Positions 24,305 to 42,538 of a stretch of 42,538 nucleotides of DNA are shown one piece after another. This DNA comes from a virus. Taxonomy: Duplodnaviria; Heunggongvirae; Uroviricota; Caudoviricetes. Positions within the stretch are counted from its first letter, which is position 1. Each line of letters starts with the position of its first letter. The notes under the pieces were generated by a model. The model had not been told where the DNA came from. It worked only from the letters and a program-made list of their open reading frames with translations, and searched no databases. The translations under genes and the position numbers were made by a program. Location: IMG/VR virus record IMGVR_UViG_2537561945_000004, one strand, 5' to 3'.

Positions 24305-24597
24305 TCCTGTTCACTGGCCTCTTTGGCCATCTTCAAATACTGTTCAGGGCAATGCGCCATAACGCGCTGAAACAGTTCCAGCGCCAGATTGCGTTGCCCC
24401 TCATTAAATGCCATTGCCATAGCGTCCATCGGTGAGATGGCGGAAAACACACGGCCTTTCTCCAGCACCGACCAGACAACGCGACGCCCCTGTTCACTGC
24501 TCATGACAAAGCGAATGTCATCAATTTCACGCTGCGCCATGTCACGTTGCTTACGGGCGTTTTCTTCTTTCAGTTGATCGTCTTCGTAATCTGTCAT
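24301..24597 (-). CDS. Hypothetical small protein between portal and scaffold
   Basis: 98 aa; overlaps portal stop and scaffold start (translational coupling). Confidence 0.45.
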   Translation of the reverse strand: MTDYEDDQLKEENARKQRDMAQREIDDIRFVMSSEQGRRVVWSVLEKGRVFSAISPMDAMAMAFNEGQRNLALELFQRVMAHCPEQYLKMAKEASEQE

Positions 24598-26273
24598 TGT
24601 GATTGCCCACCCTGACCACTAACTGCATTCGCCATAGCTGACAACACACTCGGATCCGAAGTTTTAGCTTCGCTTAGCGTCTTGGCCCCCTGTGCCGCCG
24701 CCATCCCCATCGCCATCATTTGTTGCTGCTGTTGTTGCTGTGCCCGTTGCTGGCGAGCCTGCTCAACCTGTTCCTGCGGAACAATGACGGTTGGAGACAC
24801 TCCGGACATATCAGCGAATGCATCGATCGCCTGATCAACGTTGAGTTTGTCGAGAGCTTCTGGTTTCGCTTGCGCAAGTTGACCAATGAAGTTGACCGTA
24901 GACGCCAGACTGGACAGGCCGATAGACTTCTGCGCCTGAGCCATGACGGAAATGTATTCGACCTTCAGGGGCATACCTTCCATCGCGTCAGGCGGTGGCG
25001 GCAGCATGTTTTTACGCACCATCATCGAGAAAGCGCGGTCAATGAGAGGATTAAGACATTCGTCGTTCAGACGCTCCAGAACCGGCCCCAACATCAGAAG
25101 TTTTTCTTCTTTCATTTCGATCACCGCTTCAACAGGCATCGAGCGGGTATTGATGTTCTGCAACATCATGAACAGATCGACAAAGTAGGCGCTGTTAATA
25201 ATTTGGCGAGTGTCCTGAATGTCTGCTACCAGATCTGCTGTACTGGGGTTAACCAGATAAGCAGGCCTGAAACCATCCTGACCAGTAATCTGATCGATAT
25301 ACGTGATGTCGCCAGGAAGAAGGGAGGCGCGCTGATTCTTGAGGGAAGTCGGAGCAACCATCGGCGGATTGGTGGCTTTATCAATCAACTGCGACTTGCG
25401 CTTCTGGAGAAGCTGCAATGCCTTAACAGGTCCAAGCGCCAGCATACCCGGGCATGATGATCCATAAACATCTTCGCCGTTAACTTCCCAGCGCGGAGCC
25501 ATAATTGGAAACTCATCGAATCCGGACTCACGCAACAACTTGTCGTTATCGCCACCAACCTCGTAATAAACCGATTTGAATGGCTTGTTCTTGCTATCCA
25601 GCTTCGATGTATCGCGGTCAATGTTCGGGTAAACCGAATGCATCACTTCAATCCACTTCTCGTAGGTGCCGCTTTCCCACATGCTTTTTACGGATTCGCT
25701 GACGTTATTTAGCCCGAACTCCTGAACAAGCTGACGAACAGTCATAGAGAACTTGCGAAAACAGGTGTCCACACTGCCACGAGGTGAGTTAGCCAGGTAG
25801 TAACTGCCTATCGGGAATGGCATTGTGCGAATGATGTCCTCGTCATCCTCCAGCACTGCCATTGCACCAGTGCTGTATGTGCCGAGGCTTCCGTATAACT
25901 GCGGCAGAGACTGATAGAGATTCGACTTATTGAACATATCGTTCATGCGGTTCTGCACCGCCTCAAGCCACAACTTAACAGGGCCATAATCCATCATTTC
26001 AGGATCTGGCGTAGCCAGGCGAAACCACGGACGCGCGGGGCTTGTGATGCCTGACATCATGCCGCTGGCGAGAGTGCGCGCCGCCATAGTCCCGGTCGAA
26101 TCAATAATGCGTGTATTGCGTCGATCGTTACGGTTGACCTCAGAAGTCAGAAAGCGGGAACCACGCGGGTTGATGTAATCACTCAACTCGCGCCAGTGCG
26201 GCTCGAACGACTGACGCTCGCTTTCAAGTTGTGCGAACTGTTTGTTCAATCGCTCTTTAGTTGTTTCCGCCAT
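24594..26273 (-). CDS. Portal (head-to-tail connector) protein, T7 gp8-like
   Basis: 559 aa; Gln/Ala/Met-rich C-terminal tail (QQRAQQQQQQQMMAMGMAAAQGA) like T7-type connectors; GGAG RBS. Confidence 0.7.
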   Translation of the reverse strand: MAETTKERLNKQFAQLESERQSFEPHWRELSDYINPRGSRFLTSEVNRNDRRNTRIIDSTGTMAARTLASGMMSGITSPARPWFRLATPDPEMMDYGPVKLWLEAVQNRMNDMFNKSNLYQSLPQLYGSLGTYSTGAMAVLEDDEDIIRTMPFPIGSYYLANSPRGSVDTCFRKFSMTVRQLVQEFGLNNVSESVKSMWESGTYEKWIEVMHSVYPNIDRDTSKLDSKNKPFKSVYYEVGGDNDKLLRESGFDEFPIMAPRWEVNGEDVYGSSCPGMLALGPVKALQLLQKRKSQLIDKATNPPMVAPTSLKNQRASLLPGDITYIDQITGQDGFRPAYLVNPSTADLVADIQDTRQIINSAYFVDLFMMLQNINTRSMPVEAVIEMKEEKLLMLGPVLERLNDECLNPLIDRAFSMMVRKNMLPPPPDAMEGMPLKVEYISVMAQAQKSIGLSSLASTVNFIGQLAQAKPEALDKLNVDQAIDAFADMSGVSPTVIVPQEQVEQARQQRAQQQQQQQMMAMGMAAAQGAKTLSEAKTSDPSVLSAMANAVSGQGGQSQ

Positions 26274-26920: not shown

Positions 26921-26997
26921 GTGGCATTAGCTCAGTTGGACAGAGCAACCGCCTTCTAAGCGGTTGGTCGCAGGTTCGAATCCTGCATGCCACGCCA
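26921..26997 (+). tRNA. tRNA-Arg (anticodon UCU, reads AGA), phage-encoded
   Basis: 77 nt; acceptor stem GTGGCAT/ATGCCAC, discriminator G then CCA; anticodon arm ACCGC-CTTCTAA-GCGGT; T-loop GGTTCGAATCC; sequence differs from the E. coli argU I recall. Confidence 0.85.
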
Positions 26998-27199
26998 GAA
27001 TCACGCCTAAGGACCGTGATGCCAGAAGTTCCAAGTGCTTGGCGGTGATGGTTTCCCTTGAAGGACTATCACCGCCCTTTTTACAGCAGGACGCCATTGC
27101 GATGACTTCATGCTGTAAACCCGTACAGCCACGGAAGGCAGAACTCATTGCTTCCAGTTCGCCCGGTTCGCCGGGCATTTTTTTGCTTGATGACCGCAA

Positions 27200-27216
27200 A
27201 TTACCTTAAAGGTATA
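27200..27216. promoter_or_regulatory. Operator-like palindrome variant ATTACC-TTAAA-GGTATA overlapping RBS of 27220 gene
   Basis: One-mismatch variant (GGTAT) immediately upstream of ATG 27220. Confidence 0.4.
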
Positions 27217-27219
27217 ATC

Positions 27220-28038
27220 ATGAAAAACTTCAAGGTAATTAGCATGTTTGAATCGTTCAAAGAGCTGTTTTTATCTACTGCCAATACTGCCGTGAATCGA
27301 GCCAAAAACCCTGTGCTTGGTGCTTTTGTTATGTCCTGGTGCGCCTTCAACTGGAAATCAATTCTTTATCTATTTTTTAGCAAATCAAACATAATAGATA
27401 AAATTTCATATATCTCAGATAACAGCACATGGAAAACTGTTATGTTTTATCCATGCTTATCTGTAATTGCTATCTGCTGCCTATTACCATGGGTAAACAA
27501 TATCATTAACGTATGGCAAGCAAAGCCTCTTGATAATAATGACTCAATCGAAAATCACCTGAAGGCAAGAAAAATCCAGCGTGAAACAAGGCTGCAGAGG
27601 TTATTGGCTAAAAAAGATGTTACATACGACAAAGTTAAGACTGGCGCGGAAAAAGACATCCAAGAGATGAAAGAAGAGATTATTCGTTCAAAGAATAGTA
27701 TGGGGGAATTGACTGCCGAGTTGAAAGCTAAAGATGACGAATTGAGATCCGCCAGTGCTCAGTTAGCAGCTCTAAATCATTCATTAAAAGAGATATCGGA
27801 AACTCTTGGAAGAATGAATGAGGCATATAAGACCCTCCAAAATGATTTCGACGAATACAAACTCAAATACCCTGAAAAATCTCAAATAAAAAGCCTTGCA
27901 CTTGGCAACGGCCAAACAATTAGCAACTTTTTGGAGCAACACAACTTATCCGGATTAAAATCTGGTAAGCCAAACGTTTTTAATAACTTTGGTGTTCTAT
28001 CTGGATTATCAGGTTTCGAGGATAAAAATAAAGACTAA
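27220..28038 (+). CDS. AT-rich moron: membrane-anchored coiled-coil protein, function unknown (candidate exclusion/abortive-infection-type protein)
   Basis: ATG 27220 (track ORF starts upstream at 27148); two hydrophobic segments then long charged coiled-coil; markedly lower GC than neighbours; opposite strand to the late operon; stop overlaps terminase large stop. Confidence 0.55.
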   Translation: MKNFKVISMFESFKELFLSTANTAVNRAKNPVLGAFVMSWCAFNWKSILYLFFSKSNIIDKISYISDNSTWKTVMFYPCLSVIAICCLLPWVNNIINVWQAKPLDNNDSIENHLKARKIQRETRLQRLLAKKDVTYDKVKTGAEKDIQEMKEEIIRSKNSMGELTAELKAKDDELRSASAQLAALNHSLKEISETLGRMNEAYKTLQNDFDEYKLKYPEKSQIKSLALGNGQTISNFLEQHNLSGLKSGKPNVFNNFGVLSGLSGFEDKNKD

Positions 28039-29510
28039 GCATATGGATCGTACTCGGTAAGCGCCTTGCCTTGCTGGTTCTGCTGCCCGGGAAGTCGCAG
28101 GCGCTTTGACACCGGGAAAGCAAACGTCAGCAGTAGCGCATCGCCTTTACCAGGCGAACGCCCAAGTCGTTCTTTGATATCTTCCTTCGGTTCGATAACG
28201 ATTTTACCGTCCACGCGAACTTTGTACTCTGCCGCCGACAGATCGTCCGCTGTTTCCTGGTCATCCAGCATCCCGCCCAACCTCAGCCATGTCTTGCATG
28301 AGTTGAACATCTCCCCACGCTTGTTAAGCATCTGCGGGTCAGTGGACGCACCGCCGAACGGAACAAGTTGCCATGTACGTCCCCAGCCATCACCGATTGA
28401 CTTCAAACCGGTTCCGTAACCGAAGTCGATGAACACCGCGTCAGCCTGATACTGGTCTTCAAAGTCAGCGATACGCTTCGCCATAATCAGATCGTCGGTA
28501 GTCTTGTTGCCAGTCCACAGCACCTTACTGTGTAGCCCCTGCCGCAGGTATATCACCGCGTCATCAACGCCTGAATATGCCGGGTCAACACCGATTATCA
28601 CCGGAGCATGCGCCACCTGCGCAGCGGTCACCACCCGTTTCATTGCCTCATCAGTAAGACCGGTAGGGATAAACTGCAATTCAGATGCATCAGGGAATAT
28701 GCCGCGCACACGGATTTTAACGAAGTCGCTGTCTTCCCCGTAGTCATCAACCCATTTCTGCAACTGCTGTTTGTTAGTGCCTTCCACCGTCCGGCTGTCA
28801 ATCTGCGCAGTTTTCCAGCGGTGTTTATACTTGCGGAAACATTCACGGAATCGCCCGGTGTTACGTGTCGGGTTTCCGAACGCCACCCAGATAATCTCAG
28901 TGTCTTCGTCCGTAAGCGCACCCTCAGCAACTTCCCACACCAGATCCGCAATATTCGACGCTTCATCGAATACCACGATGATGCGTTTGCGCTCGTTGTG
29001 TAGTCCGGCGAATGCCTCTGTGTTGTGCTCAGACCAGGGGATTGCGTCAGCTCGCCACCGCTTGTCGTGCCCAGGATCATTGCTGTACATCGCGGTAGCG
29101 GTACAGGTAAACCAGTCTTTCGTGATAGCAAGGTTCGACCACTTGATAATTTCCGGCCAGGTCTTCGTTCGTAGCTGGTTGTCGGTGTTGGCGGTCACCA
29201 CGACCTTACAATCCTCGCAAGTGGACATGCCCCAGTTGATCAGCATTGAGATGAATGCGGATTTACCAATACCGTGACCAGAAGCGCGTGCCAGCATAAG
29301 CGGCTGATAGCGCGTCTCTGGATTCTGCAGGTGATCACGTATCTCTCGGAACGCATCAGCCTGCCACTGACGTGGGCCGGTGGCATGTGCCAGTTCAGTC
29401 CCCTCTTCCCCCCACGGGAACGCATAGAGGGCATAGCCAAGCGGATCGTGAGTGAACCCTGCAATATCCTCGATCAACTGCTCTTCAGGAGATAACGCTG
29501 TATCTGTCAC
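28035..29510 (-). CDS. Terminase large subunit
   Basis: 491 aa; ATPase N-terminal and nuclease C-terminal terminase architecture; overlaps terminase small stop. Confidence 0.75.
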   Translation of the reverse strand: MTDTALSPEEQLIEDIAGFTHDPLGYALYAFPWGEEGTELAHATGPRQWQADAFREIRDHLQNPETRYQPLMLARASGHGIGKSAFISMLINWGMSTCEDCKVVVTANTDNQLRTKTWPEIIKWSNLAITKDWFTCTATAMYSNDPGHDKRWRADAIPWSEHNTEAFAGLHNERKRIIVVFDEASNIADLVWEVAEGALTDEDTEIIWVAFGNPTRNTGRFRECFRKYKHRWKTAQIDSRTVEGTNKQQLQKWVDDYGEDSDFVKIRVRGIFPDASELQFIPTGLTDEAMKRVVTAAQVAHAPVIIGVDPAYSGVDDAVIYLRQGLHSKVLWTGNKTTDDLIMAKRIADFEDQYQADAVFIDFGYGTGLKSIGDGWGRTWQLVPFGGASTDPQMLNKRGEMFNSCKTWLRLGGMLDDQETADDLSAAEYKVRVDGKIVIEPKEDIKERLGRSPGKGDALLLTFAFPVSKRLRLPGQQNQQGKALTEYDPYA

Positions 29511-30569: not shown

Positions 30570-30675
30570 TCCACGCCAGATTGATTAATGACTCCCAGGC
30601 AATATAAACCCGGATACCAGCAGCCAGGCCGAAACCAATCACCATGGCATAAAGCAGAGCGTTGCACTTGTTCAT
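30553..30675 (-). CDS. Small hydrophobic peptide (40 aa)
   Basis: ATG 30675 overlapping the DUF551 gene stop, preceded by AGGAGG with 8-nt spacing; MNKCNALLYAMVIGFGLAAGIRVYIAWESLINLAWSAIRG; not in ORF track (below cutoff). Confidence 0.3.
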   Translation of the reverse strand: MNKCNALLYAMVIGFGLAAGIRVYIAWESLINLAWSAIRG

Positions 30676-31526
30676 CACTTCACCTCCTGCGGCGGTTCTG
30701 GTAGAGGCATCCAGTCGGTTACATTGCGGCTCTGCGTTTCGAAGAACTCCTCACCATTGCGGACAACATCAAAAAACTCACCGTCTCGATATTGTGCATA
30801 AAGAACGAATGCACCATCACATAAAATAATTACGTGCTGACCATCATCAGGCATTTGCTCACTACAGCTTATCCAACCATCCGGAGTTACCGGAGAGTTG
30901 CCAGCCAGTCTACGCAAAACAGCCTTAACAGCCTCAATACGGTCATCATCGTAACTTTCCGCCGTATCTATGCGGTAGAGCATGATGATTGCGTTATCAA
31001 TATCAGGATTGCCAGTCCACTCATTACCGCGATTGGATTCGGCAGCCTGGTTGCCGCGTACTGGTTGATTCTCGGCTTTACCCTGTCTGTCGTCGCTGCA
31101 TGAATGCCCTTCCAGCCAGGCCAATGCTTGTCGCATGAAATATGCAATATGTTTGCCGTGGTAATCGTCTTCATCGATGTGAAAAGCGATACTGCGGATG
31201 TATTCAATTGCGTTTTCAATGGCCTCCGGCGTTATCGGCGCTGGCGGTGCGGTATAAAACTTCGTCCCCAACGGCAACAACTTCATCGCTTTTTCTCCCT
31301 TAATGATGCGATAAGTTGATTTCCCGCCAAGGTCTACCGTTCCATCCATAACAAGGCCATGTTGCTTCTCTGAAACTTCACCAATAGGCTCTGCTTCCAG
31401 CGATGCCAGCGCAATTCGTGCCAGTTCTTCCGCTTCTTCTGCTGGCAGTACAACGTTGCTACCCGGTCCGTATGTTTCGCGCCACTGCTTGATTGTCAGC
31501 AGTCGCTCTTTGGTAATAGTGGTCAT
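30675..31526 (-). CDS. DUF551-domain phage protein
   Basis: C-terminal ..DGQHVIILCDGAFVLYAQYRDGEFF...VTDWMPLPEPP matches the DUF551 pattern common in lambdoid nin regions. Confidence 0.55.
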   Translation of the reverse strand: MTTITKERLLTIKQWRETYGPGSNVVLPAEEAEELARIALASLEAEPIGEVSEKQHGLVMDGTVDLGGKSTYRIIKGEKAMKLLPLGTKFYTAPPAPITPEAIENAIEYIRSIAFHIDEDDYHGKHIAYFMRQALAWLEGHSCSDDRQGKAENQPVRGNQAAESNRGNEWTGNPDIDNAIIMLYRIDTAESYDDDRIEAVKAVLRRLAGNSPVTPDGWISCSEQMPDDGQHVIILCDGAFVLYAQYRDGEFFDVVRNGEEFFETQSRNVTDWMPLPEPPQEVK

Positions 31527-31536
31527 TTGTTAGTCC

Positions 31537-32292
31537 TTAAACTGCCAGTTGCAATTGCATTTCAAAGCGGTCGCGTTGTTCACAATACGCAAGAGAACCA
31601 GGGCTATTGTGTGCCTCAATCCGTTCTACCATTAATGCTGCGCGTGTCTCTTTACTTGCAGGTGCATAAGCCCCAGACCAGGCTTTATCAATACCGATGT
31701 TTCGAGCGACGTTCGTACTATCTGCGCTGGCTAAGGGTAATTTTGTGAATATCAGCGGATTTAACATGCGCAATCCATGTAGTTTCGTAACCGGCTGACC
31801 ATGCTCATCAACAATGTGACAAATCAGGTCTTTCATTCTGGCTACCGCAAGAGTTGGGCGCTTTACGTCATAGTCTCCACAACTACCGATAGCCACTCGC
31901 GGAAACTCATTGCACAAATGAATAAACCGCTCGTCACTTTCATTCATGTGCCACACTGGAACGTCAGATAGTTTTCCGTGAGGCCACTCATTCAGAAGCG
32001 CATCATTTTCCTCCTCTCCGCCATCAATAACATCCGGGATAATGGCAAAATCGAATCCTGGGTGATTCTTCCAGCGAGCGACAAACTCGTAGTAATCGCT
32101 CCAGTCGATTTTGTTTTTGCCAGCTGCTTTCCAGGCGGTGAATGCACCGTTGTCCAGCGCGAACGACTGACAGTATTCAGCCGCGAGATTGATCTGTCCT
32201 GAATGCGCAAAACTGATAAACGCATGCCGCCCTTTCCATGCTCTCATTGCGCACGTATCAGGAGTAATAGGCCCACCGTGATAATGAATCAT
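31537..32292 (-). CDS. Hypothetical protein; candidate tRNA-guanine transglycosylase (TGT)/DpdA-like enzyme
   Basis: ATG 32292 with AAGGAG RBS (MIHYHGGPITP...); weak motif-level resemblance to TGT superfamily (HGGPITP, LDNGAF); assignment tentative. Confidence 0.35.
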   Translation of the reverse strand: MIHYHGGPITPDTCAMRAWKGRHAFISFAHSGQINLAAEYCQSFALDNGAFTAWKAAGKNKIDWSDYYEFVARWKNHPGFDFAIIPDVIDGGEEENDALLNEWPHGKLSDVPVWHMNESDERFIHLCNEFPRVAIGSCGDYDVKRPTLAVARMKDLICHIVDEHGQPVTKLHGLRMLNPLIFTKLPLASADSTNVARNIGIDKAWSGAYAPASKETRAALMVERIEAHNSPGSLAYCEQRDRFEMQLQLAV

Positions 32293-32293
32293 C

Positions 32294-32785
32294 TCACTCT
32301 CCTTTGATGCGAATGCCTGTTGCAATGCTGTTTATGATGCTGTCAGTGCATGGGGTAGAAAGCTGGGCATCTCCAGCAATTTTCATGACCTCAACATCTG
32401 CATATCGAATACCGAGGTGTATCAGACCGGCTATACCTGACTTAAGCCGAGCATTTTCCATAAACAGATCCTTTGCCCGCTGTTTTTCTGCCTCAAGCTC
32501 AACGCGCAGCTTCCCTACCGTTAGCGCAATATCCTCGTTCTCCTGGTCGCGGCGTTTGATGTATTGCTGGTTCCTTTCCCGTTCATCCAGTAGTGCCAAA
32601 GCAATCTTTGGATTAAAGGCAGCAATAAATTCAGCGTTGTTTTTCAGGACGTGTTGCGCAATGGCCTGACTACTTAGTCGGACCTCATAACCACGTGCGC
32701 CACGGTGTGGTTTATATGAGTCCCAGTCTCCCCACGTTGCTTTCTCTGCCGCCTCACGCAGTGCATGATAGTCAATCTTGTTCAC
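32294..32785 (-). CDS. Ea22-like coiled-coil protein
   Basis: N-terminus MNKIDYHALREAAEKATWGDW typical of ead/Ea22-like lambdoid proteins. Confidence 0.5.
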   Translation of the reverse strand: MNKIDYHALREAAEKATWGDWDSYKPHRGARGYEVRLSSQAIAQHVLKNNAEFIAAFNPKIALALLDERERNQQYIKRRDQENEDIALTVGKLRVELEAEKQRAKDLFMENARLKSGIAGLIHLGIRYADVEVMKIAGDAQLSTPCTDSIINSIATGIRIKGE

Positions 32786-33249
32786 TGGACGCCTCCTTTG
32801 CGAAGCTGGGCGGCGAACTCGTTAAGTGATATGTAGCAATCTCCAAATGTTAACGAGCCGCTCGACTGCATATGCTCCATAGCCATCTCTACCACCTGCG
32901 CCCGCACTTCAGCCATGAAAGCATCGGTGGCTGGGGTTTCAACACGGATGCTGTCGCGCAAGATGAAAAATGCATCAAGCATTCCAGTCTCCGGAACTTC
33001 ATCCTGATACTTCTCATACGCATCAAGAGCCTTCATCATCTCAGGTCCGAATGGTTGAGGGTGCGCAGATTTCAGTCTCGCATTCTCCGCTGCCAGCGCA
33101 TTAGCACGCACCAGTTGCACTTCCAGTTGCGTTGCCAAATCGCTGATCAGCTTTGCCACACTGCGCATATCAACGGCACCACATTCTGCTTTCAGTTCCG
33201 AAGCCATCTCATGCCCGGCGGCAACTAACCCTTTGATATTACTTTCCAT
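32782..33249 (-). CDS. Ea22-like / hypothetical coiled-coil protein
   Basis: ORF track; helical charged protein adjacent to the Ea22-like gene. Confidence 0.4.
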   Translation of the reverse strand: MESNIKGLVAAGHEMASELKAECGAVDMRSVAKLISDLATQLEVQLVRANALAAENARLKSAHPQPFGPEMMKALDAYEKYQDEVPETGMLDAFFILRDSIRVETPATDAFMAEVRAQVVEMAMEHMQSSGSLTFGDCYISLNEFAAQLRKGGVQ

Positions 33250-33310: not shown

Positions 33311-33655
33311 TCAGAACTCTTCTATGTTCCAGCCACCACCTGCTTTCTTTGGTTTAACCGTTACCCCGATGATTCGGAACGGATACTGATCTGCGGCGAC
33401 TTTGGTTTTCACCCTGGCGTCGTCGGTCCAGAAACCTTTCACTTCGTGCAGTTCCATCTCGCCGGTGGCGAGCATCACAGCAAAATCGGGCGTATAGAAC
33501 GTGTTGTCAGCTAACCGCAGCTTGATACCCTCAAATCGATACCAGACGATTTCTCCTGCACGTTTACGCAGCTCAAGGTGCTGGCAATACGCAGATTCTG
33601 TTTTGTTCATTTGGCCTGTTTTGAGTCGACCAAGAGCCTGTATCTGTTTTCTCAT
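33311..33655 (-). CDS. DUF1064-family phage protein (resolvase/nuclease-like fold)
   Basis: Pattern MRKQIQALGRLKTGQMNKTESAY..LELRKRAGEI..YRFEGIKLRLA...YTPDF; operator motif immediately upstream. Confidence 0.5.
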   Translation of the reverse strand: MRKQIQALGRLKTGQMNKTESAYCQHLELRKRAGEIVWYRFEGIKLRLADNTFYTPDFAVMLATGEMELHEVKGFWTDDARVKTKVAADQYPFRIIGVTVKPKKAGGGWNIEEF

Positions 33656-33772: not shown

Positions 33773-34558
33773 TTACTTGATAAATCCTGCCGCCTTTCCC
33801 CGCCTGTATTCCTCTATCAGCCACTGCGCCGGTGTTATTCCCCCCAGGGTGGCGGCGTTAGGCATGCACCCGAAACTTCGCCCTGGTGGATGGTAAACGT
33901 TTCTCCCAGTGTCAGGAGGCGTACTCATGGGTTCTGGCTTTGCCTGTATGCTGATCACCGGATCGGGTATCTGCTGTCCGGAAGCCACCTTTTTCGCCCA
34001 ATCATCGAGCAGCCTGCGCGCGTGTTTCTCAACCTCAATCTCGCTAAGCTGGCGCTGATACATTGCACGGCGGGTATCACATACGACCCAGTACATAACC
34101 GGATGTCGCCACGGGAATCTTTCGGGACCACCAGGATATAAACTTTTTTCCTTGCTGTACCGGTGAAACTCCGCCATCACATCGTCAATGGTGACGCCAA
34201 GAACCATCTTGCTGTCTTTACACCACTTGATGAATTGCCCAGGCGACGGCCAGAACGGAGATTCACTGGCGCGGGCGTGGCGCATACCAGCAGAAACCTG
34301 TTCACGGGTTCGGATCCCCCCTTCGGCAAACGCAGCAATCCACTGCTGTTTTGCAGCTACTTCCTGCTCTGGCGTCTTCAGGTTGGTTACCACTGCCGCC
34401 GGAAACAGTTGTTTCAGCTGTTTGAAAAGGGCATCAACAAGCCTCTCTGCTGACATGTTAACCACATTGTCATTGTTGACGTACTGATGCTCATAACCTG
34501 ACATGCGAGAAAGGGCTTCTCCGTCACGGTTTTGTATCGCGGTAAAAACGTTGTTCAC
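33773..34558 (-). CDS. Replication protein P-like (DnaB helicase loader)
   Basis: ..QQWIAAFAEGGIRTREQVSAGMRHARASESPFWPSPGQFIKWCKDS.. parallels lambda P (RRQWVLAFRENGITTMEQVNAGMRVARRQNRPFLPSPGQFVAWCREE); GTG 34558 with GGAGGA RBS overlapping O-like stop (GTGA). Confidence 0.65.
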   Translation of the reverse strand: MNNVFTAIQNRDGEALSRMSGYEHQYVNNDNVVNMSAERLVDALFKQLKQLFPAAVVTNLKTPEQEVAAKQQWIAAFAEGGIRTREQVSAGMRHARASESPFWPSPGQFIKWCKDSKMVLGVTIDDVMAEFHRYSKEKSLYPGGPERFPWRHPVMYWVVCDTRRAMYQRQLSEIEVEKHARRLLDDWAKKVASGQQIPDPVISIQAKPEPMSTPPDTGRNVYHPPGRSFGCMPNAATLGGITPAQWLIEEYRRGKAAGFIK

Positions 34559-35370
34559 AAGAAATCCTCCCATGCTTCAGGGCTGTTCCAGTGCGGAACG
34601 TTGTTATCAGATAATGTTGATTGCTTCTGTCTGCTAATCTGCAGCCGCCTTGCCAGCTTCTGCTCCCACTGTGCCTGATGGTATGCCTTACCCTCAGCCA
34701 TCCAGTAAATTCTGAACTCTGCAAGTTCCTGTGCCGTTGGCAGACTGTCCAGGTAGATCCCCTGCAATGAGCTTTTCCGAAGAAAGTCATCTGATGGCTG
34801 CCATTGTTCATGCATGACAAATTTGCCTAATTGCCCTGGCCCACCAGGAGGAACAAAGTTATTCATCACGGCGTTGTTTGCGCCGGGGTCATGATGCACA
34901 GAATCCCCGTTTTTTGTCCTGCTCTCCCTCTCTTGGTTAAATGACTGGTTATATGACTGGTTCTGGATCCCGTTTTTGGGATCATTCAACATCCCGTTTT
35001 TGGGATCATTCAACATCCCGTTTTTGGGTATATTCCCGTTTTCGGTAACATTACCGTTTTCGGGTTCATTGCCCCCCTCCCGGTTGCCTTTAATGTTCCC
35101 GTTTTTGGTTATATTAAGAGAGAAAACCCGCACTCTTTTTGTCGCTCCCTTTCTCTCTCCGGTATCTGAAATAAGCCCCATTTTCATGAGCGATATAAGC
35201 CCGGCCTGCACGGTTTTTTTATTCAGGCAAGTGTCTTTAACGAGGCGTTCTATGCTGGGGTAGCAGAGGTTATATTCATCGGCTCTGTCAGCCATCGAGA
35301 GCAGTATGAGCTTTAATGATGAGCTACCTGGATCTGTCTCCCAGGCCCAATCTGTTGCATGTCTGCTCAT
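34555..35370 (-). CDS. Replication initiator O-like protein with iterons inside the coding sequence
   Basis: GGAG RBS; N-terminal HTH-like DNA-binding region; internal peptide repeats (NDPKNGML x3) encoded by 24-bp DNA iterons; directly followed by P-like gene. Confidence 0.6.
   Translation of the reverse strand: MSRHATDWAWETDPGSSSLKLILLSMADRADEYNLCYPSIERLVKDTCLNKKTVQAGLISLMKMGLISDTGERKGATKRVRVFSLNITKNGNIKGNREGGNEPENGNVTENGNIPKNGMLNDPKNGMLNDPKNGIQNQSYNQSFNQERESRTKNGDSVHHDPGANNAVMNNFVPPGGPGQLGKFVMHEQWQPSDDFLRKSSLQGIYLDSLPTAQELAEFRIYWMAEGKAYHQAQWEQKLARRLQISRQKQSTLSDNNVPHWNSPEAWEDFL
34941..35110. repeat. Putative replication origin: iterons TCCCGTTTT(T/C)GG x6 plus ATGACTGGTT x2, followed by AT-rich stretch
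   Basis: Copies at about 34968, 34992, 35016 (24-bp period), 35034, 35053, 35097; AT-rich segment 35110-35130. Confidence 0.6.
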
Positions 35371-35967: not shown

Positions 35968-36034
35968 AGCTATTGCCTGATATTTATTTCAGATAATAAA
36001 TATTCACCCATAAGGTAACAAAAATCAAGGATAG

Positions 36035-37314: not shown

Positions 37315-37517
37315 AACCAACACTCCTCTCATTGCTGCGAGGTGGAAAACACAGCATCCGAGATATGGCAAAGATTCTTGGTATCTCAAGATCGAAGGTT
37401 TCTTGGTTCATCGCTGAGCTTGAACGTCGCAAATGGGTAGAGGTAACCATGAGCGCAATATATTTCCACGATGGAACCCGTTCCAACAAGCAGAACGAAT
37501 ACAAGGTTAAGTTATGA
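37311..37517 (+). CDS. Small winged-helix/HTH DNA-binding protein
   Basis: 68 aa, SIRDMAKILGISRSKVSWFIAELERRKWV HTH-like; GAGGGA RBS. Confidence 0.45.
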   Translation: MKPTLLSLLRGGKHSIRDMAKILGISRSKVSWFIAELERRKWVEVTMSAIYFHDGTRSNKQNEYKVKL

Positions 37518-38335
37518 ATACTGGCATCTATTTCGACATCAGCAATGAGGACTACCACGCCGGTGACGGCGTGAGTAAGTCGCAACTGGACATGGTTGCC
37601 AAGAATCCGGCGCTTCTTAAATGGGTTCAGGCAGCACCAGAAGACGAAGAGAAAAAGTCTGCACTGGATATGGGAACCGCATTGCACTGTCTGCTTCTGG
37701 AGCCTAGAGAGTTCGACAAACGCTTCATTGTTTCACCGAAATTCGATCGTCGGACGAAACAAGGTAAAGCTGACGAAGAGGCATTTCTTCGTGATGTGGC
37801 GGATATGGGGATTACGGTACTTGATGCCGAGCAGTGGCGGAAACTGGAGCTGATGCGTGATAGCGCAATGGCTCACCCGGCGGCACGCTGGATGTTGGAA
37901 GCACCTGGTTACTGCGAAGCATCAATGTACTGGAACGATGAAGAGACGGGTGAGTTGTGCCGAATTCGTCCAGACAAATGGCTGAACGAGCACAACGTGA
38001 TCGTCGACGTGAAAAAGGTTGCAGATATGGACCGTTTTGCACGCCACATCGAGGAATTCCGCTACCACGTGCAGGACGCAATGTACCGCGAAGGCGCAAT
38101 GAGGGTTACTGGTCAGCCGCATGGTTTTTTCTTTCTTGCCGTGAGCGAAAGCATTGATTGTGGTCGGTATCCGGTACGCGTGTTCGAGCTGGATGCGCAG
38201 GATGTCGATGCCGGGCACGCTCTGTTCCGCCGGGATCTGAATACCTATCACGAATGCCGCATCAATGATGAATGGGGCGGTGTGGAAATCATTAAACGCC
38301 CTGAGTGGGCACGCAAACAGGATATGTACATATGA
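37514..38335 (+). CDS. PD-(D/E)XK family 5-prime to 3-prime exonuclease (RecE/YqaJ-like recombination exonuclease)
   Basis: N-terminal GIYFDISNEDYHAGDGVSKSQL and D..D-VK nuclease motif (IVDVKKV); immediately upstream of and overlapping RecT-like gene. Confidence 0.6.
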   Translation: MNTGIYFDISNEDYHAGDGVSKSQLDMVAKNPALLKWVQAAPEDEEKKSALDMGTALHCLLLEPREFDKRFIVSPKFDRRTKQGKADEEAFLRDVADMGITVLDAEQWRKLELMRDSAMAHPAARWMLEAPGYCEASMYWNDEETGELCRIRPDKWLNEHNVIVDVKKVADMDRFARHIEEFRYHVQDAMYREGAMRVTGQPHGFFFLAVSESIDCGRYPVRVFELDAQDVDAGHALFRRDLNTYHECRINDEWGGVEIIKRPEWARKQDMYI

Positions 38336-39273
38336 GCAACGACATCGCAAACATCAACGCACCAGTAGACACAGCAATCGCTGGAACTGCTGCAACTATT
38401 TTCAGCCCAGACGGCTTGAACCAACTGATGAAATTCGCCGAGGTAATGGCGCAAAGCCGCGTAACGGTACCGGCGCACCTCGCCGGGAAACCAGCTGATT
38501 GCATGGCCGTGGCAATGCAGGCTGCGCAGTGGGGAATGAACCCGTTTGCCGTGGCTCAGAAAACCCATGTTGTGAACGGCACGCTAGGTTATGAAGCCCA
38601 ATTAGTAAACGCAGTTATCTCAACGATGTCGCCAACAAAAGATCGCATCAACTACGAGTGGTTTGGGCCGTGGGAACGCGTGATCGGTAAGTTTGTTGAG
38701 AAAACATCCAAAAACGGCAATCCATATATCGCACCAGGCTGGACTCTAAAAGACGAAGAAGGCTGCGGTGTTCGCGTATGGGCAACCATGAAGGGCGAGG
38801 ATCAACCTCGAGTGCTTGAGTTAATGCTGTCTCAAGCACAGGTAAGAAACTCCACACTTTGGGCCAGTGATCCGAAACAACAACTCGCATACCTTGCGAC
38901 AAAACGCTGGTCTCGCCTGCACTGTCCTGACGTAATCATGGGCGTCTACACCCCAGACGAATTACAGGAAACGGCACCGCGCGTTGAGCGAGACATTACT
39001 CCGCAAACGACAACTGCTGCGGGAATGAACAGTCTGATCAACGCTAAAACAGTGAAAAAGCCTGATGAGCAAACGCGTAAAGCGGATAGCCGTGATCCAG
39101 AAGAAATGCTGATGGCCTTTACCAGCGCAGCGATGAATTACAGCACTGTCTCCGAACTGGATAAGGCTTACAAATACATTGCACAAAAACTTTCAGATGA
39201 TGACGAACTGCTGGCAAAAGCCACCGACGTTTACAGCGTTCGTCGGGAAGAATTAAACGAAATATCTATGTAA
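38332..39273 (+). CDS. RecT-family single-strand annealing protein
   Basis: ATG 38332 overlapping exonuclease stop; pattern ..LAYLATKRWSRLHCPDVIMGVY.. and pairing with exonuclease. Confidence 0.6.
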   Translation: MSNDIANINAPVDTAIAGTAATIFSPDGLNQLMKFAEVMAQSRVTVPAHLAGKPADCMAVAMQAAQWGMNPFAVAQKTHVVNGTLGYEAQLVNAVISTMSPTKDRINYEWFGPWERVIGKFVEKTSKNGNPYIAPGWTLKDEEGCGVRVWATMKGEDQPRVLELMLSQAQVRNSTLWASDPKQQLAYLATKRWSRLHCPDVIMGVYTPDELQETAPRVERDITPQTTTAAGMNSLINAKTVKKPDEQTRKADSRDPEEMLMAFTSAAMNYSTVSELDKAYKYIAQKLSDDDELLAKATDVYSVRREELNEISM

Positions 39274-39680: not shown

Positions 39681-39980
39681 GTGAGAAAGTTAAGCCGACT
39701 TGAAAAATATCACATGAACAAGGTTTCAATGCGCAGCCCTTCAAAGATTGTCGCCGTTACTCCTGCGGCGATAGAGATCGAAAAACGCGCGATTGAAAGA
39801 GAGAAAAAAGGGCAATTCCGCATTGCCGCTCACCTTTGGCTTCAGTGTATGGATGTTGCTTCTGGTGATGTTGAACGTGCAAGGATCGCGGTTCGCAGGG
39901 ACCAATGTATCACAAAAGGTAACGGCCTTCGCCGTGGCGACTATAGCGGCATAGGATGTTGTGGGGTGGTTTATGACTAA
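39681..39980 (+). CDS. PerC-like transcriptional activator (tentative)
   Basis: Motif AIEREKKGQFRIAAHLWLQCMD resembles the PerC-family core (E..KG.WRRAA.LW) as I recall it. Confidence 0.35.
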   Translation: MRKLSRLEKYHMNKVSMRSPSKIVAVTPAAIEIEKRAIEREKKGQFRIAAHLWLQCMDVASGDVERARIAVRRDQCITKGNGLRRGDYSGIGCCGVVYD

Positions 39981-40623
39981 GAAATACACACTAATCTATG
40001 CAGATCCACCCTGGGTATACCGGGACAAAGCCGCAGATGGTAATCGCGGTGCCAGTTTTAAATATCCGGTTATGAGTGTGATGGATATCTGCCGCCTTCC
40101 TGTGTGGGATTTGGCCGATGAAAACTGTCTGTTGGCCATGTGGTGGGTGCCAACACAACCACTCGAAGCGCTAAAAGTTGTTGAAGCCTGGGGATTCCGT
40201 CTGATGACCATGAAGGGCTTCACGTGGATAAAATGTGGTAGTCGACAACCAGATAAACTGGTTATGGGTATGGGGCACATGACTCGCGCCAATAGTGAAG
40301 ATTGCCTGTTTGCGGTAAAGGGAAAACTACCTACGCGCATTAATGCAGGGATCGTTCAGTCATTTACCGCACCGCGGCTTGAGCATTCAAGAAAACCAGA
40401 TATCGTTCGTGAAAAACTTGTGCAATTGTTAGGCGATGTTTCTCGCATTGAACTGTTCGCCCGCCAGACGTCTCATGGCTTCGATGTTTGGGGTAATCAG
40501 TGCGAAGACCCGGCAGTGCAACTACACCCTGGATACGCGTTGGATATTGGCGGATTAACAAATGCATTCAGCAATGCTCCGGTGTCACCAATAGACAACC
40601 AGGGGCGGGAGCGTGCAGCATGA
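39973..40623 (+). CDS. MT-A70-family DNA N6-adenine methyltransferase
   Basis: Catalytic DPPW motif ([10 protein letters not shown]); ATG 39973 with GGGGTGG RBS (track ORF starts at GTG 39961). Confidence 0.75.
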
Positions 40624-41279
40624 ACCTATATCAACGCATCAATGGCGCTGACTGGTGCAATATCTTCGTCGTCGGCGATCTGCATGGGTGCTACACGCTG
40701 CTGATGAACGAACTCGACAAAGTTTCATTCGACCCGGCGCGCGATTTACTTATTTCCGTTGGTGACCTTGTTGACCGCGGCGCTGAAAACGTCGAATGCC
40801 TGGATTTGATTACTATGCCGTGGTTCCGAGCTGTTCGTGGCAACCATGAGCAGATGATGCTGGATGCACTGGTCAACGGCGGAAGTTTCGGACATTGGAT
40901 GTCAAACGGCGGTGGATGGTGGCACCAACTTGATTCTGAGCAGGATGTGCAACTCAAATACCTTCTGCCAAAGATTACCAACCTCCCGATGATTATCGAA
41001 CTGGTTACCGGCAATAAGAAGGTCGTCATCTGTCACGCAGACTACCCGCACAACGAATACGCATTCGATAAGCCAGTACCAGAAGAAATGGTGATATGGA
41101 ATCGTGAACGGGTTAGCGACGCGCAGGACGGTATTGTCTCGGAGATAACCGGTGCCGATTTGTTCATCTTCGGTCATACGCCAGCACATCACCCACTGGT
41201 GTATGCAAACCAGATGTACATCGACACCGGCGCAGTGTTCTGCGGAAATCTGACGCTTACCAAAGTCCAGGAAGGATAG
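40620..41279 (+). CDS. Ser/Thr protein phosphatase (lambda-PPase / NinI-like metallophosphoesterase)
   Basis: Motifs GDLHG, GDLVDRG, GNHE; ATG 40620 overlapping methyltransferase stop (track ORF starts upstream at 40500). Confidence 0.8.
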
Positions 41280-41281
41280 AA

Positions 41282-42538
41282 TTATTTATTACTGTCTTCC
41301 ATCCACTTCTCAAACTTCGACGGGGAGAACGGAATCAGATCCGTATGCTCCCCGTTAATCCAGGAATCAATCATATCGGCCCACTGCTGCAACATGTAGG
41401 CGCGCTGTCTGGCGTATTCCGCTTTGTTATATACGGCGCGCACACCTTTCTGCTCATGTGCCAGAGCCTTTTCAATCCAGTCTGAAGGATAACCAGCCTC
41501 ATGCAACAACGTACTGGCTGTACGGCGCATATCGTGTACGGTGAAGTCCTGAATATTCTCACCATCTTCATTTATTATTTTCACCGTTCTGTCGATCAGA
41601 GAGTTCAGCGCGGCATTAGATAATGGCTTCCTGAAATTGTAACGACCAGGAACCAGATATTCACTTCCACCAGCGCACATCTGCAACCCGACCAATATAT
41701 CCTGAGCCTGTTTAGGCAGGTAAATAACATGCGCCCGGCTTCCCTTCATGCGGTCTGAAGGAATTGTCCATGTCCATTTTTTAAAATCTATTTCATCCCA
41801 CGTTGCATTGGTGAATTCGCCCTTACGAACCATAGTGATAAGCACCAGTTTTAAAGCCATTTTCATAGTGCCCATAGCACCAATGGCATCCAACGTGCGG
41901 AAGAACAGGCCAATTTCTTCTGGTGTCAGTGTTCGCTCTCGTGGTTTAAATATGGCGATAGACGAAGGTTTAATGTCAGCCGCAGGATTAAACAAACCAT
42001 GACCACGGTCATTGGCGTGACGGTATACGCTGCTGATGATCTCCCTGGCCTGTACTGCTGTTGCCCGACCACCACGTTCGACAATCCGGTCACACAAATC
42101 ACGAACCATCGATGTGGTAATTTCAGCCATCATTTTGTTGCCAAGAACCGGAAGTATGTCACGGTCGATCACCGCCTGCTTCATTGCTCGGGTACTGTCA
42201 GCCAGGATGACGTGTTTCATATAACTGTCGGTATGTACCGCAAACGTCTCGGCACCACGAATCTTTTTGATACCGTCACGTTTAGCCGCAGCCGGCGACT
42301 GGCCTGCTTTAAGCAGCTTCTTTGCAGCAATCAGTTCTTCTCGCGCTTCTGCTAGACTGATACCGTCACGCCCATACTGCCCGATTACCAGTGTTTCGCG
42401 GCGACCGTTGATACGGTAGTCATAGCGAAACGAGACCGTGCCTGACGTAAGCACAGCTACATACAGCCCGTCACGATCGGAGACCTTGTACAGTTTGTCC
42501 TGCGGCTTGAGGTTTTTTAATTTTGTATCGGTAAGCAC
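41282..42538 (-). CDS. Tyrosine recombinase (P4-type phage integrase), N-terminus at or just beyond window edge
   Basis: N-terminal LTDTKLKNLKPQDKLYKVSDRDGLYVAVLTSG arm-binding domain; C-terminal catalytic R..H..R..Y region (HDMRRTASTLL...VRAVY). Confidence 0.85.
   Translation of the reverse strand: MLTDTKLKNLKPQDKLYKVSDRDGLYVAVLTSGTVSFRYDYRINGRRETLVIGQYGRDGISLAEAREELIAAKKLLKAGQSPAAAKRDGIKKIRGAETFAVHTDSYMKHVILADSTRAMKQAVIDRDILPVLGNKMMAEITTSMVRDLCDRIVERGGRATAVQAREIISSVYRHANDRGHGLFNPAADIKPSSIAIFKPRERTLTPEEIGLFFRTLDAIGAMGTMKMALKLVLITMVRKGEFTNATWDEIDFKKWTWTIPSDRMKGSRAHVIYLPKQAQDILVGLQMCAGGSEYLVPGRYNFRKPLSNAALNSLIDRTVKIINEDGENIQDFTVHDMRRTASTLLHEAGYPSDWIEKALAHEQKGVRAVYNKAEYARQRAYMLQQWADMIDSWINGEHTDLIPFSPSKFEKWMEDSNK

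What the first reader, a model, noticed from the sequence alone, without database searches (positions are those of the whole stretch)
31537..32292. Possible TGT/DpdA-like DNA-modification enzyme in the nin region
The 251-aa protein (strong AAGGAG RBS) has an N-terminal HGGPITP segment and an LDNGAF segment that loosely recall tRNA-guanine transglycosylase signatures. Phage DpdA homologs of this superfamily insert 7-deazaguanine derivatives into DNA as anti-restriction protection. A solo DpdA using host preQ0 would be a notable anti-defence function alongside the MT-A70 methyltransferase. This is a weak, motif-level inference.
Basis: inference. Interest (0 to 1): 0.5.

Follow-up and report, generated by a model that had tools for sequence, protein, structure and literature searches.

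The report
Solo phage DpdA DNA-guanine transglycosylase gene
This prophage gene encodes a stripped-down member of the DpdA family, enzymes that swap guanine in phage DNA for a 7-deazaguanine base to dodge host restriction; near-identical copies were already catalogued in 2019, so it is a correct call but not a new discovery.

The parts
31537..32292 (-). Solo dpdA gene: a 251-aa minimal (beta/alpha)8-barrel transglycosylase of the phage DpdA family (stop codon included).
32299..32304 (-). Shine-Dalgarno AAGGAG, 6 nt upstream of the ATG. The upstream ORF's stop (32294..32296) lies between it and the start codon.
   Evidence: Read directly from the sequence.
32140..32157 (-). Codons for L46-D47-N48-G49-A50-F51. 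D47 is the inferred general acid/base and F51 the inferred base-stacking Phe (equivalents: E. coli Tgt D89-SGG-F93, bDpdA D95/F99, CAjan LDSGAF).
   Evidence: D47 is invariant in 52 diverse homologs. It aligns to CAjan LDSGAF. Tgt motif located. bDpdA residue roles from PMC10164549.
32026..32040 (-). Codons for I85-P86-D87-V88-I89. D87 is the inferred base-recognition Asp at the end of beta-4 (equivalents: Tgt FD143EC, bDpdA D130, Cap10 D122).
   Evidence: D87 is conserved in >=90% of A1 and invariant in A2. Its position at a strand end comes from the model. The equivalence is inferred from colinearity.
31948..31959 (-). Codons for P112-V113-W114-H115 at the end of beta-5. H115 is nearly invariant and is the inferred counterpart of bDpdA H181.
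   Evidence: Conservation. Aligns to CAjan PCFH. The bDpdA equivalence is inferred.
31768..31785 (-). Codons for K170-L171-H172-G173-L174-R175 on beta-7. H172 is invariant and is the conserved DpdA histidine; it probably partners the nucleophile as Cap10 H226 does.
   Evidence: Invariant. Aligns to CAjan KLHAFG. 'Conserved histidine' of DpdA noted in PMC6884629. Cap10 D248/H226 pair.
31714..31728 (-). Codons for S189-A190-D191-S192-T193 on beta-8. D191 is the inferred catalytic nucleophile (equivalents: Tgt DMFD264C, bDpdA D256, Cap10 D248, CAjan SCDSS).
   Evidence: S189, D191 and S192 are invariant. Aligned to CAjan. DNA checked. Roles.
35993..36021 (-). Candidate PR-like promoter of the rightward early operon (replication genes, then resolvase, then Ead/Ea22-like genes, then dpdA). 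Weak consensus match only.
   Evidence: 9/12 consensus match, with fewer such sites in the region than shuffles give. No terminator-like site on the minus strand between 35696 and 30506. Operon membership is inferred.

Best explanation
The gene encodes a minimal, stand-alone phage DpdA, a TGT-superfamily DNA-guanine transglycosylase. It is co-transcribed with the replication genes during lytic growth (inferred). It then acts on newly replicated phage DNA by a double-displacement base exchange. D47 protonates and activates the target guanine. [quoted passage not shown] A free 7-deazaguanine base, read by D47/N48, D87 and H115 and stacked on F51, then attacks through N9 to close the glycosidic bond. 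The phage carries no precursor genes, so the base must come from the E. coli queuosine pathway: preQ0 most likely, possibly ending up as dADG. Modification is therefore expected to be sparse or motif-restricted, giving partial protection from restriction enzymes. What is shown: family membership, fold, conservation of the catalytic constellation, the solo status, and pathway association in the sister clade. What is inferred: DNA as the substrate, the identity of the inserted base, the timing of expression, and the anti-restriction benefit. The confidence of 0.65 refers to the functional claim (7-deazaguanine insertion into DNA); membership of the DpdA family itself is about 0.93.
Confidence: 0.65

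Rival explanations
1. It is a diverged DpdA-fold protein that no longer bulk-modifies phage DNA. It could be a site-specific writer at a handful of sites, an enzyme using a different base (preQ1, queuine, CDG), or a base-excising or base-swapping enzyme aimed at other DNA, such as the host chromosome in lysogens or deazaguanine-modified competitor phages.
For: The clade has shed every precursor and transporter gene (0 in 80 loci; none in the window), while the sister clade retains them. It is nevertheless under very strong purifying selection. It is present in 204 of 5,426 E. coli genomes. Solo-DpdA phages measured so far have trace (7-11) or no (Orion) modification. Hutinet et al. raise functional divergence explicitly. 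Other DpdAs insert bases other than preQ0.
Against: The full catalytic constellation for base exchange is invariant, which argues for retained transglycosylase chemistry. The operon position with the replication genes fits action on replicating phage DNA. There is no PADLOC defence hit. No evidence of expression in lysogens was found.
Confidence: 0.2
2. It is a true tRNA-guanine transglycosylase, as the PHROG and RefSeq label 'queuine tRNA-ribosyltransferase' says, and it alters queuosine status of host or phage tRNAs to tune translation.
For: The label comes from phrog_887 and several RefSeq records. The protein shares the TGT fold. The window carries a tRNA-Arg(tct).
Against: There is no PF01702 hit and no hhalign similarity to E. 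coli Tgt (probability 1%). It has no Zn-binding CxCxxC motif and no conserved Cys cluster. At 251 aa there is room only for the barrel, without the tRNA-binding insertions and C-terminal elements of the 375-aa Tgt. The closest validated relative acts on DNA. The label is inherited annotation, not a test. tRNA-Arg(UCU) lacks the G34-U35-N36 anticodon that TGT targets (established knowledge of TGT specificity).
Confidence: 0.06
3. It is a Cap10-like enzyme that handles a 7-deazaguanine conjugated to a protein (deazaguanylation), not to nucleic acid.
Against: Cap10 works within a Cap9 (QueC-like) plus CD-NTase operon. No such genes are in the window or next to homologs, and PADLOC finds no CBASS component. 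Sequence homology points to phage DpdA.
Confidence: 0.03

Closest known systems
Singleton phage DpdA of gamma-proteobacterial phages (Hutinet et al. 2019, Nat Commun 10:5442, group 3: SPN3UB YP_007011024, SfI YP_009147480, BTP1, HK106, 7-11, SE131, PEAT2)
   Same: Same protein family and, for SPN3UB (92% identity) and SfI (67%), the same clade. Same solo status, with no preQ0 genes. Same slot after the replication genes in SPN3UB.
   Different: Here the gene is carried by a phiV10/epsilon15-like podovirus prophage rather than a lambdoid, P22-like or SfI-type phage. It is only 36% identical to the one measured member, 7-11. HK106 and PEAT2 fall in the 7-11 subclade, not this one.
DpdA1 of Queuovirinae (Escherichia phages CAjan and 9g)
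   Same: Detectable homology (hhalign 98.9%), shared D-x-G-A-F, P-x-x-H, K-L-H and S-x-D-S motifs, no Zn site and no Pfam hit. Works without a DpdB-type partner.
   Different: CAjan DpdA is 306 aa with extra N- and C-terminal segments. It sits in a FolE-QueD-QueE-QueC-YhhQ cluster and modifies ~25-32% of G at GA/GGC. The target is 251 aa and solo, and its level and motif of modification are unknown.
Bacterial DpdA of the Dpd restriction-modification system (Salmonella Montevideo, PDB 7UI4)
   Different: bDpdA is 413 aa with a Zn site and a 128-residue Ins8. It needs the DpdB ATPase and sits in a dpd cluster. The target has none of these and no sequence-level match.
Cap10 of type IV CBASS (PDB 9NTN)
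   Different: Cap10 binds a deazaguanylated CD-NTase N-terminus and is encoded with Cap9 and CdnD in a defence operon. None of that context exists here.
tRNA-guanine transglycosylase (Tgt, PF01702)
   Different: No Pfam or hhalign match, no Zn motif, no tRNA-binding extensions, and about 125 residues shorter.

Membership tests
Phage DpdA (DNA 7-deazaguanine transglycosylase, DpdA1-type / singleton group) | Significant sequence homology to an experimentally validated phage DpdA | tested here: met
   BLASTP E=1e-7 (25% identity over 152 aa) and hhalign 98.9% probability, E=3e-17, to CAjan DpdA. 36% identity, E=4e-37, to the SE131/7-11 DpdA. The 92%-identical SPN3UB protein is listed as a DpdA in PMC6884629 Supplementary Data 1.
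Phage DpdA (DNA 7-deazaguanine transglycosylase, DpdA1-type / singleton group) | TGT-like (beta/alpha)8 barrel fold | tested here: met
Phage DpdA (DNA 7-deazaguanine transglycosylase, DpdA1-type / singleton group) | Catalytic Asp pair (acid/base Asp in D-x-G-x-F; nucleophile Asp on beta-8) plus a base-reading Asp and the conserved His | tested here: met
   D47, H172 and D191 are invariant and D87 and H115 are conserved in >=90%. They align with CAjan LDSGAF, KLHAFG and SCDSS and are colinear with Tgt D89/D143/D264 and bDpdA D95/D130/H181/D256. Equivalence to the solved structures is inferred; no superposition was done.
Phage DpdA (DNA 7-deazaguanine transglycosylase, DpdA1-type / singleton group) | Genomic association with 7-deazaguanine precursor synthesis or uptake genes | tested here: inconclusive
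   Not met for this gene or its close clade: none in the window and 0 in 80 loci. Met for the sister clade of the same family: 24 of 43 contigs have an abutting YhhQ/VUT or QueD(/QueE) gene. Solo status is itself a recognised DpdA group.
Phage DpdA (DNA 7-deazaguanine transglycosylase, DpdA1-type / singleton group) | 7-deazaguanine nucleosides present in phage DNA and dependent on the gene | not testable with these tools
   Requires LC-MS/MS or nanopore analysis of induced phage DNA. Only 7-11 (36% identical) has been measured, at 50 dADG per 10^6 nt.
Bacterial DpdA (Dpd R-M system) | Encoded in a dpd cluster with the DpdB ATPase and DpdC; structural Zn site and large Ins8 insertion | tested here: not met
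   No conserved partner gene in 53 loci. No PADLOC hit at E<=0.01. No conserved Cys cluster. It is 251 aa versus 413 aa. The profile finds no PDB sequence.
tRNA-guanine transglycosylase (PF01702) | Match to the PF01702 / TGT profile; CxCxxC...H zinc site; tRNA-binding extensions | tested here: not met
   No Pfam hit even at E<=10. hhalign to E. coli Tgt gives probability 1%. The Tgt C302-x-C-x-x-C motif has no counterpart.
Cap10 (type IV CBASS deazaguanylation) | Operon with a Cap9 (QueC-like) gene and a CD-NTase carrying a Gly-rich N-terminus | tested here: not met

The most novel reading that the evidence does not exclude
The solo clade has lost every precursor and transporter gene, yet it is held under very strong purifying selection in thousands of temperate enterobacterial phages. 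It may therefore not be a bulk anti-restriction modifier. It could write a host-derived 7-deazaguanine (preQ0, preQ1 or ADG) at a few specific sites, or act on non-phage DNA such as the lysogen chromosome or incoming deazaguanine-modified competitors. That would give temperate phages an epigenetic-type mark or an exclusion function distinct from what lytic Queuovirinae do.
Probability: 0.15. Interest if true: 0.6.

Novelty: already known. Interest (0 to 1): 0.3.

Why it matters
RefSeq labels this gene 'hypothetical protein' in the records I examined. It is present in about 4% of complete E. coli genomes (204 of 5,426) and in many Salmonella, Shigella, Klebsiella and Vibrio temperate phages. 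Recognising it as a DpdA matters in three ways. Such prophages may release virions whose DNA carries 7-deazaguanines, which affects restriction barriers, Cas9 and nanopore behaviour, and sensitivity to newly found deazaguanine-targeting defences (GrwAB, Dag glycosylases). It also gives an easily inducible E. coli system for answering the question left open in 2019: what do singleton DpdAs do, and with which host-made base? Finally, it shows that Pfam- or Foldseek-only screens miss this family.

Tried and rejected
These searches and checks led nowhere or came back negative.

- Pfam, NCBIfam and PDB sequence searches with the single protein gave nothing, even at E<=10.
- The family profile against PDB sequences gave only GCN4 coiled-coil noise.
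- CAjan DpdA against PDB sequences gave nothing.
- hhalign of the family profile against a single E. coli Tgt sequence gave probability 1%, so no direct sequence bridge to canonical TGT could be built.
- The search for related loci with the very diverse alignment A1 failed for lack of a conserved stretch. It was redone with A2.
- The first Python attempt failed on file layout.
- The search for a conserved partner gene (a DpdB- or DpdC-like helper) in 53 loci found only the ubiquitous Ead/Ea22/DUF551 mosaic proteins. A partner is rejected.
- PADLOC gave no defence-system match.
- The literature searches found no experiments on this temperate-phage clade. The BTP1 transcriptome paper does not mention the gene.
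- A functional link to the MT-A70 gene was considered and rejected. It is 7.7 kb away in the opposite operon, and nothing ties the two together.

Full report
OBSERVATION. The feature is a genuine gene on the minus strand, 31537..32292. It starts with ATG at 32292 and encodes 251 aa beginning MIHYHGGPITP. An AAGGAG ribosome-binding site lies 6 nt upstream (32299..32304). The stop codon of the preceding Ead/Ea22-like ORF (32294..32785) ends one base before the ATG, and the next ORF (DUF551 protein, 30675..31526) starts 10 nt after the stop. This is the tight packing of an operon. HGGPITP is residues 5-11 and LDNGAF is residues 46-51. The gene is certainly functional. More than 7,800 homologs scored E<=1e-3, and 832 cluster representatives did so in an exhaustive search of 1.84 billion proteins. 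Homologs that are 92-94% identical in protein have saturated synonymous sites, giving dN/dS of about 0.01-0.02.

SETTING. The window is a phiV10/epsilon15-like (Uetakevirus) E. coli prophage. On the minus strand the order is:
- DnaT-like replication initiator (34555..35370)
- P-like helicase loader (33773..34573)
- DUF1064-type resolvase (33311..33655)
- two unknown or Ead/Ea22-like ORFs
- the target gene
- a DUF551 protein
- a regulator
- small and large terminase subunits

No terminator-like site on the minus strand interrupts this run between 35696 and 30506, so the gene is probably transcribed with the replication genes. That is an inference. 'Nin region' is therefore only an analogy. The closest sequenced relative of the prophage, phiv142-3 (97% DNA identity in the flanks), has unrelated ORFs in this slot, so the gene is a mosaic accessory cassette. 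The same cassette sits right after the replication genes in lambdoid Salmonella phage SPN3UB (92% identity). It occurs in 204 of 5,426 complete E. coli genomes, and the listed top hits are all annotated 'hypothetical protein'.

WHAT IT IS. Routine checks are silent. There is no Pfam, NCBIfam or PADLOC hit and no PDB sequence hit, even with a family profile. Only PHROGs gives a label (phrog_887, 'queuine tRNA-ribosyltransferase', E=2e-101). Three independent lines establish the family.

(1) Sequence. The protein matches the DpdA of Escherichia phage CAjan by BLASTP (E=1e-7), and the family profile matches it by hhalign at 98.9% probability (E=3e-17, 174 columns). Every conserved motif is in register: LDNGAF/LDSGAF, PVWH/PCFH, KLHGLR/KLHAFG and SADST/SCDSS. 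CAjan DpdA is experimentally validated: wild-type DNA has 70,628 dPreQ0 per 10^6 nt and the dpdA deletion has <6. CAjan DpdA itself has no Pfam hit, so Pfam's silence carries no weight. The same profile gives only 1% probability against E. coli Tgt. This doubles as a control showing that hhalign does not reward any TIM barrel.

(3) Genomic association. A sister clade of the same family is about 40% identical to the target (Pseudanabaena phage Pam5 and Caulobacter phage DMCA). There the gene is directly abutted by a YhhQ/VUT-type preQ0 transporter in 14 loci and by QueD in 10 loci (4 of them with QueE). That is 24 of 43 distinct viral contigs. PEAT2's solo homolog also neighbours a VUT gene. 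In contrast, the 80 closest viral loci (66-99% identity, 1.08 Mb) and the window itself contain no FolE, QueD, QueE, QueC or YhhQ homolog. This clade is consistently solo.

ACTIVE SITE. Across 52 homologs down to 34% identity, the invariant residues are D47, H172, S189, D191 and S192. H5, G6, D87, H115 and E118 are conserved in at least 90%. In the model all of them sit at the C-terminal ends of beta strands. Their order and spacing are colinear with three known enzymes:
- E. coli Tgt: D89-SGGF, FD143EC, DMFD264C
- bacterial DpdA: D95 acid/base, F99, D130, H181, D256 nucleophile
- Cap10: D73/S74, D122, H226/D248

These equivalences are inferred from colinearity and from the CAjan alignment. 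I could not superpose coordinates. The family has no conserved Cys cluster, and neither does CAjan DpdA. The Zn site of TGT and bDpdA, and their large insertions, are therefore absent: this is a bare barrel.

MECHANISM (best explanation, about 0.65 for the functional claim and about 0.93 for family membership). During lytic growth the enzyme exchanges guanines in replicated phage DNA for a free 7-deazaguanine by the TGT/DpdA double-displacement route. D47 is the acid/base, D191 the nucleophile with H172 as partner, and D87, N48 and H115 read the base. With no precursor genes, the base must come from the host queuosine pathway. This is feasible: 9g DpdA expressed alone in E. coli inserts dPreQ0 into plasmid DNA, and hosts of solo-DpdA enterobacterial phages have the full pathway. 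Unlike bacterial DpdA, no ATPase partner is expected. None is conserved next to the gene in 53 loci, where only the ubiquitous Ead/Ea22/DUF551 mosaics recur. Modification is likely sparse. The one measured relative, phage 7-11 (its DpdA is 99.6% identical to SE131's and 36% identical to the target), carried only dADG, at ~0.02% of G.

RIVALS.
(a) Functional divergence of the solo clade: site-specific marking, another base, or another DNA target (confidence 0.2). This is favoured by the loss of all pathway genes despite strong selection, and by the trace or absent modification in measured solo phages. It is disfavoured by the intact catalytic set.
(b) A real tRNA transglycosylase, as the inherited label says (0.06). 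This is disfavoured by the missing Zn site and tRNA-binding parts, and by the absence of any TGT profile match.
(c) Cap10-like protein deazaguanylation (0.03). The fold and the Asp/His pair fit, but the obligatory Cap9 and CD-NTase context is absent.

COMPARISON WITH WHAT IS KNOWN, AND NOVELTY. Hutinet et al. 2019 (PMC6884629) defined a group of 76 phages that encode DpdA but no precursor genes. Their Supplementary Data 1 lists SPN3UB, SfI, HK106, BTP1, 7-11, SE131 and PEAT2. SPN3UB's single homolog is 92% identical to the target and SfI's is 67% identical. The classification is therefore already in the literature. What remains unknown, and was flagged as open by those authors, is what singleton DpdAs in temperate enterobacterial phages actually do. 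I found no later experimental work on this clade.

VERDICT. The finding is already known as a kind and as a near-identical protein, so interest is modest (0.3). That interest rests mainly on the open functional question and on the practical point that standard Pfam or Foldseek screens miss this family.

Noticed in passing
window 27148..28038 (+): A 296-aa ORF runs opposite to the whole structural operon, wedged between the large terminase (28035..29510, -) and the portal gene (24594..26273, -). It belongs to phrog_4780 (unknown function, E=4e-137) and has no Pfam hit. PADLOC gives only weak coiled-coil-type similarity to DndD, JetC and LmuB (E about 1e-5 to 1e-2). It is a possible moron or defence gene in an unusual position.
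   Followed up: partly
window 26921..26997 (+): A tRNA-Arg (anticodon TCT) lies in the same terminase-portal gap and overlaps a 90-aa minus-strand ORF of phrog_4647. The same tRNA is annotated in phage phiv142-3.
   Followed up: no
window 34967..35119: Six tandem copies of an 18-24 nt unit (ATCCCGTTTTTGGGATCATTCAAC; two are perfect) lie inside the DnaT/O-like replication initiator gene (34555..35370, -). They encode the NGN/KNGMLNDP peptide repeats. This is probably the iteron array of the phage origin, as in lambda O.
   Followed up: partly
window 39961..41279 (+): An MT-A70 DNA methyltransferase ORF (39961..40623, Pfam E=1e-22, phrog_359) is followed by a NinI-like Ser/Thr phosphatase ORF (40500..41279). 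As listed from the first in-frame start, the second overlaps the first by about 120 nt, so its true start is probably further downstream. Both are in the leftward early operon with RecT (38305..39273) and a DUF3799 PDDEXK exonuclease (37514..38335), next to the integrase (41282..42538, -).
   Followed up: partly
L135 (phiv142-3) 3143..5609 vs window 30675..33249: The closest sequenced Uetakevirus lacks the dpdA gene. The slot between the resolvase and the terminase holds a different set of Ead/Ea22/Eaa-type ORFs. This shows cassette-level mosaicism in an otherwise 97%-identical backbone.
   Followed up: yes
L003 (SE131), H74-H77 (PEAT2, HK106): Solo DpdAs of enterobacterial phages split into at least two subclades. 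HK106 and PEAT2 group with 7-11/SE131 (59-61% identity to SE131), whereas SPN3UB, SfI and this prophage form another, about 36% identical to the first. In SE131 the gene lies about 1.6 kb from a DarB-like antirestriction gene.
   Followed up: partly
L115-L117, L128 (IMG/VR contigs): Some sister-clade phages carry only QueE, QueD and the DpdA-like gene in a row, with no QueC or FolE homolog detected within 10 kb. This suggests they top up CDG synthesis and rely on the host for the remaining steps, or that they insert CDG itself.
   Followed up: no
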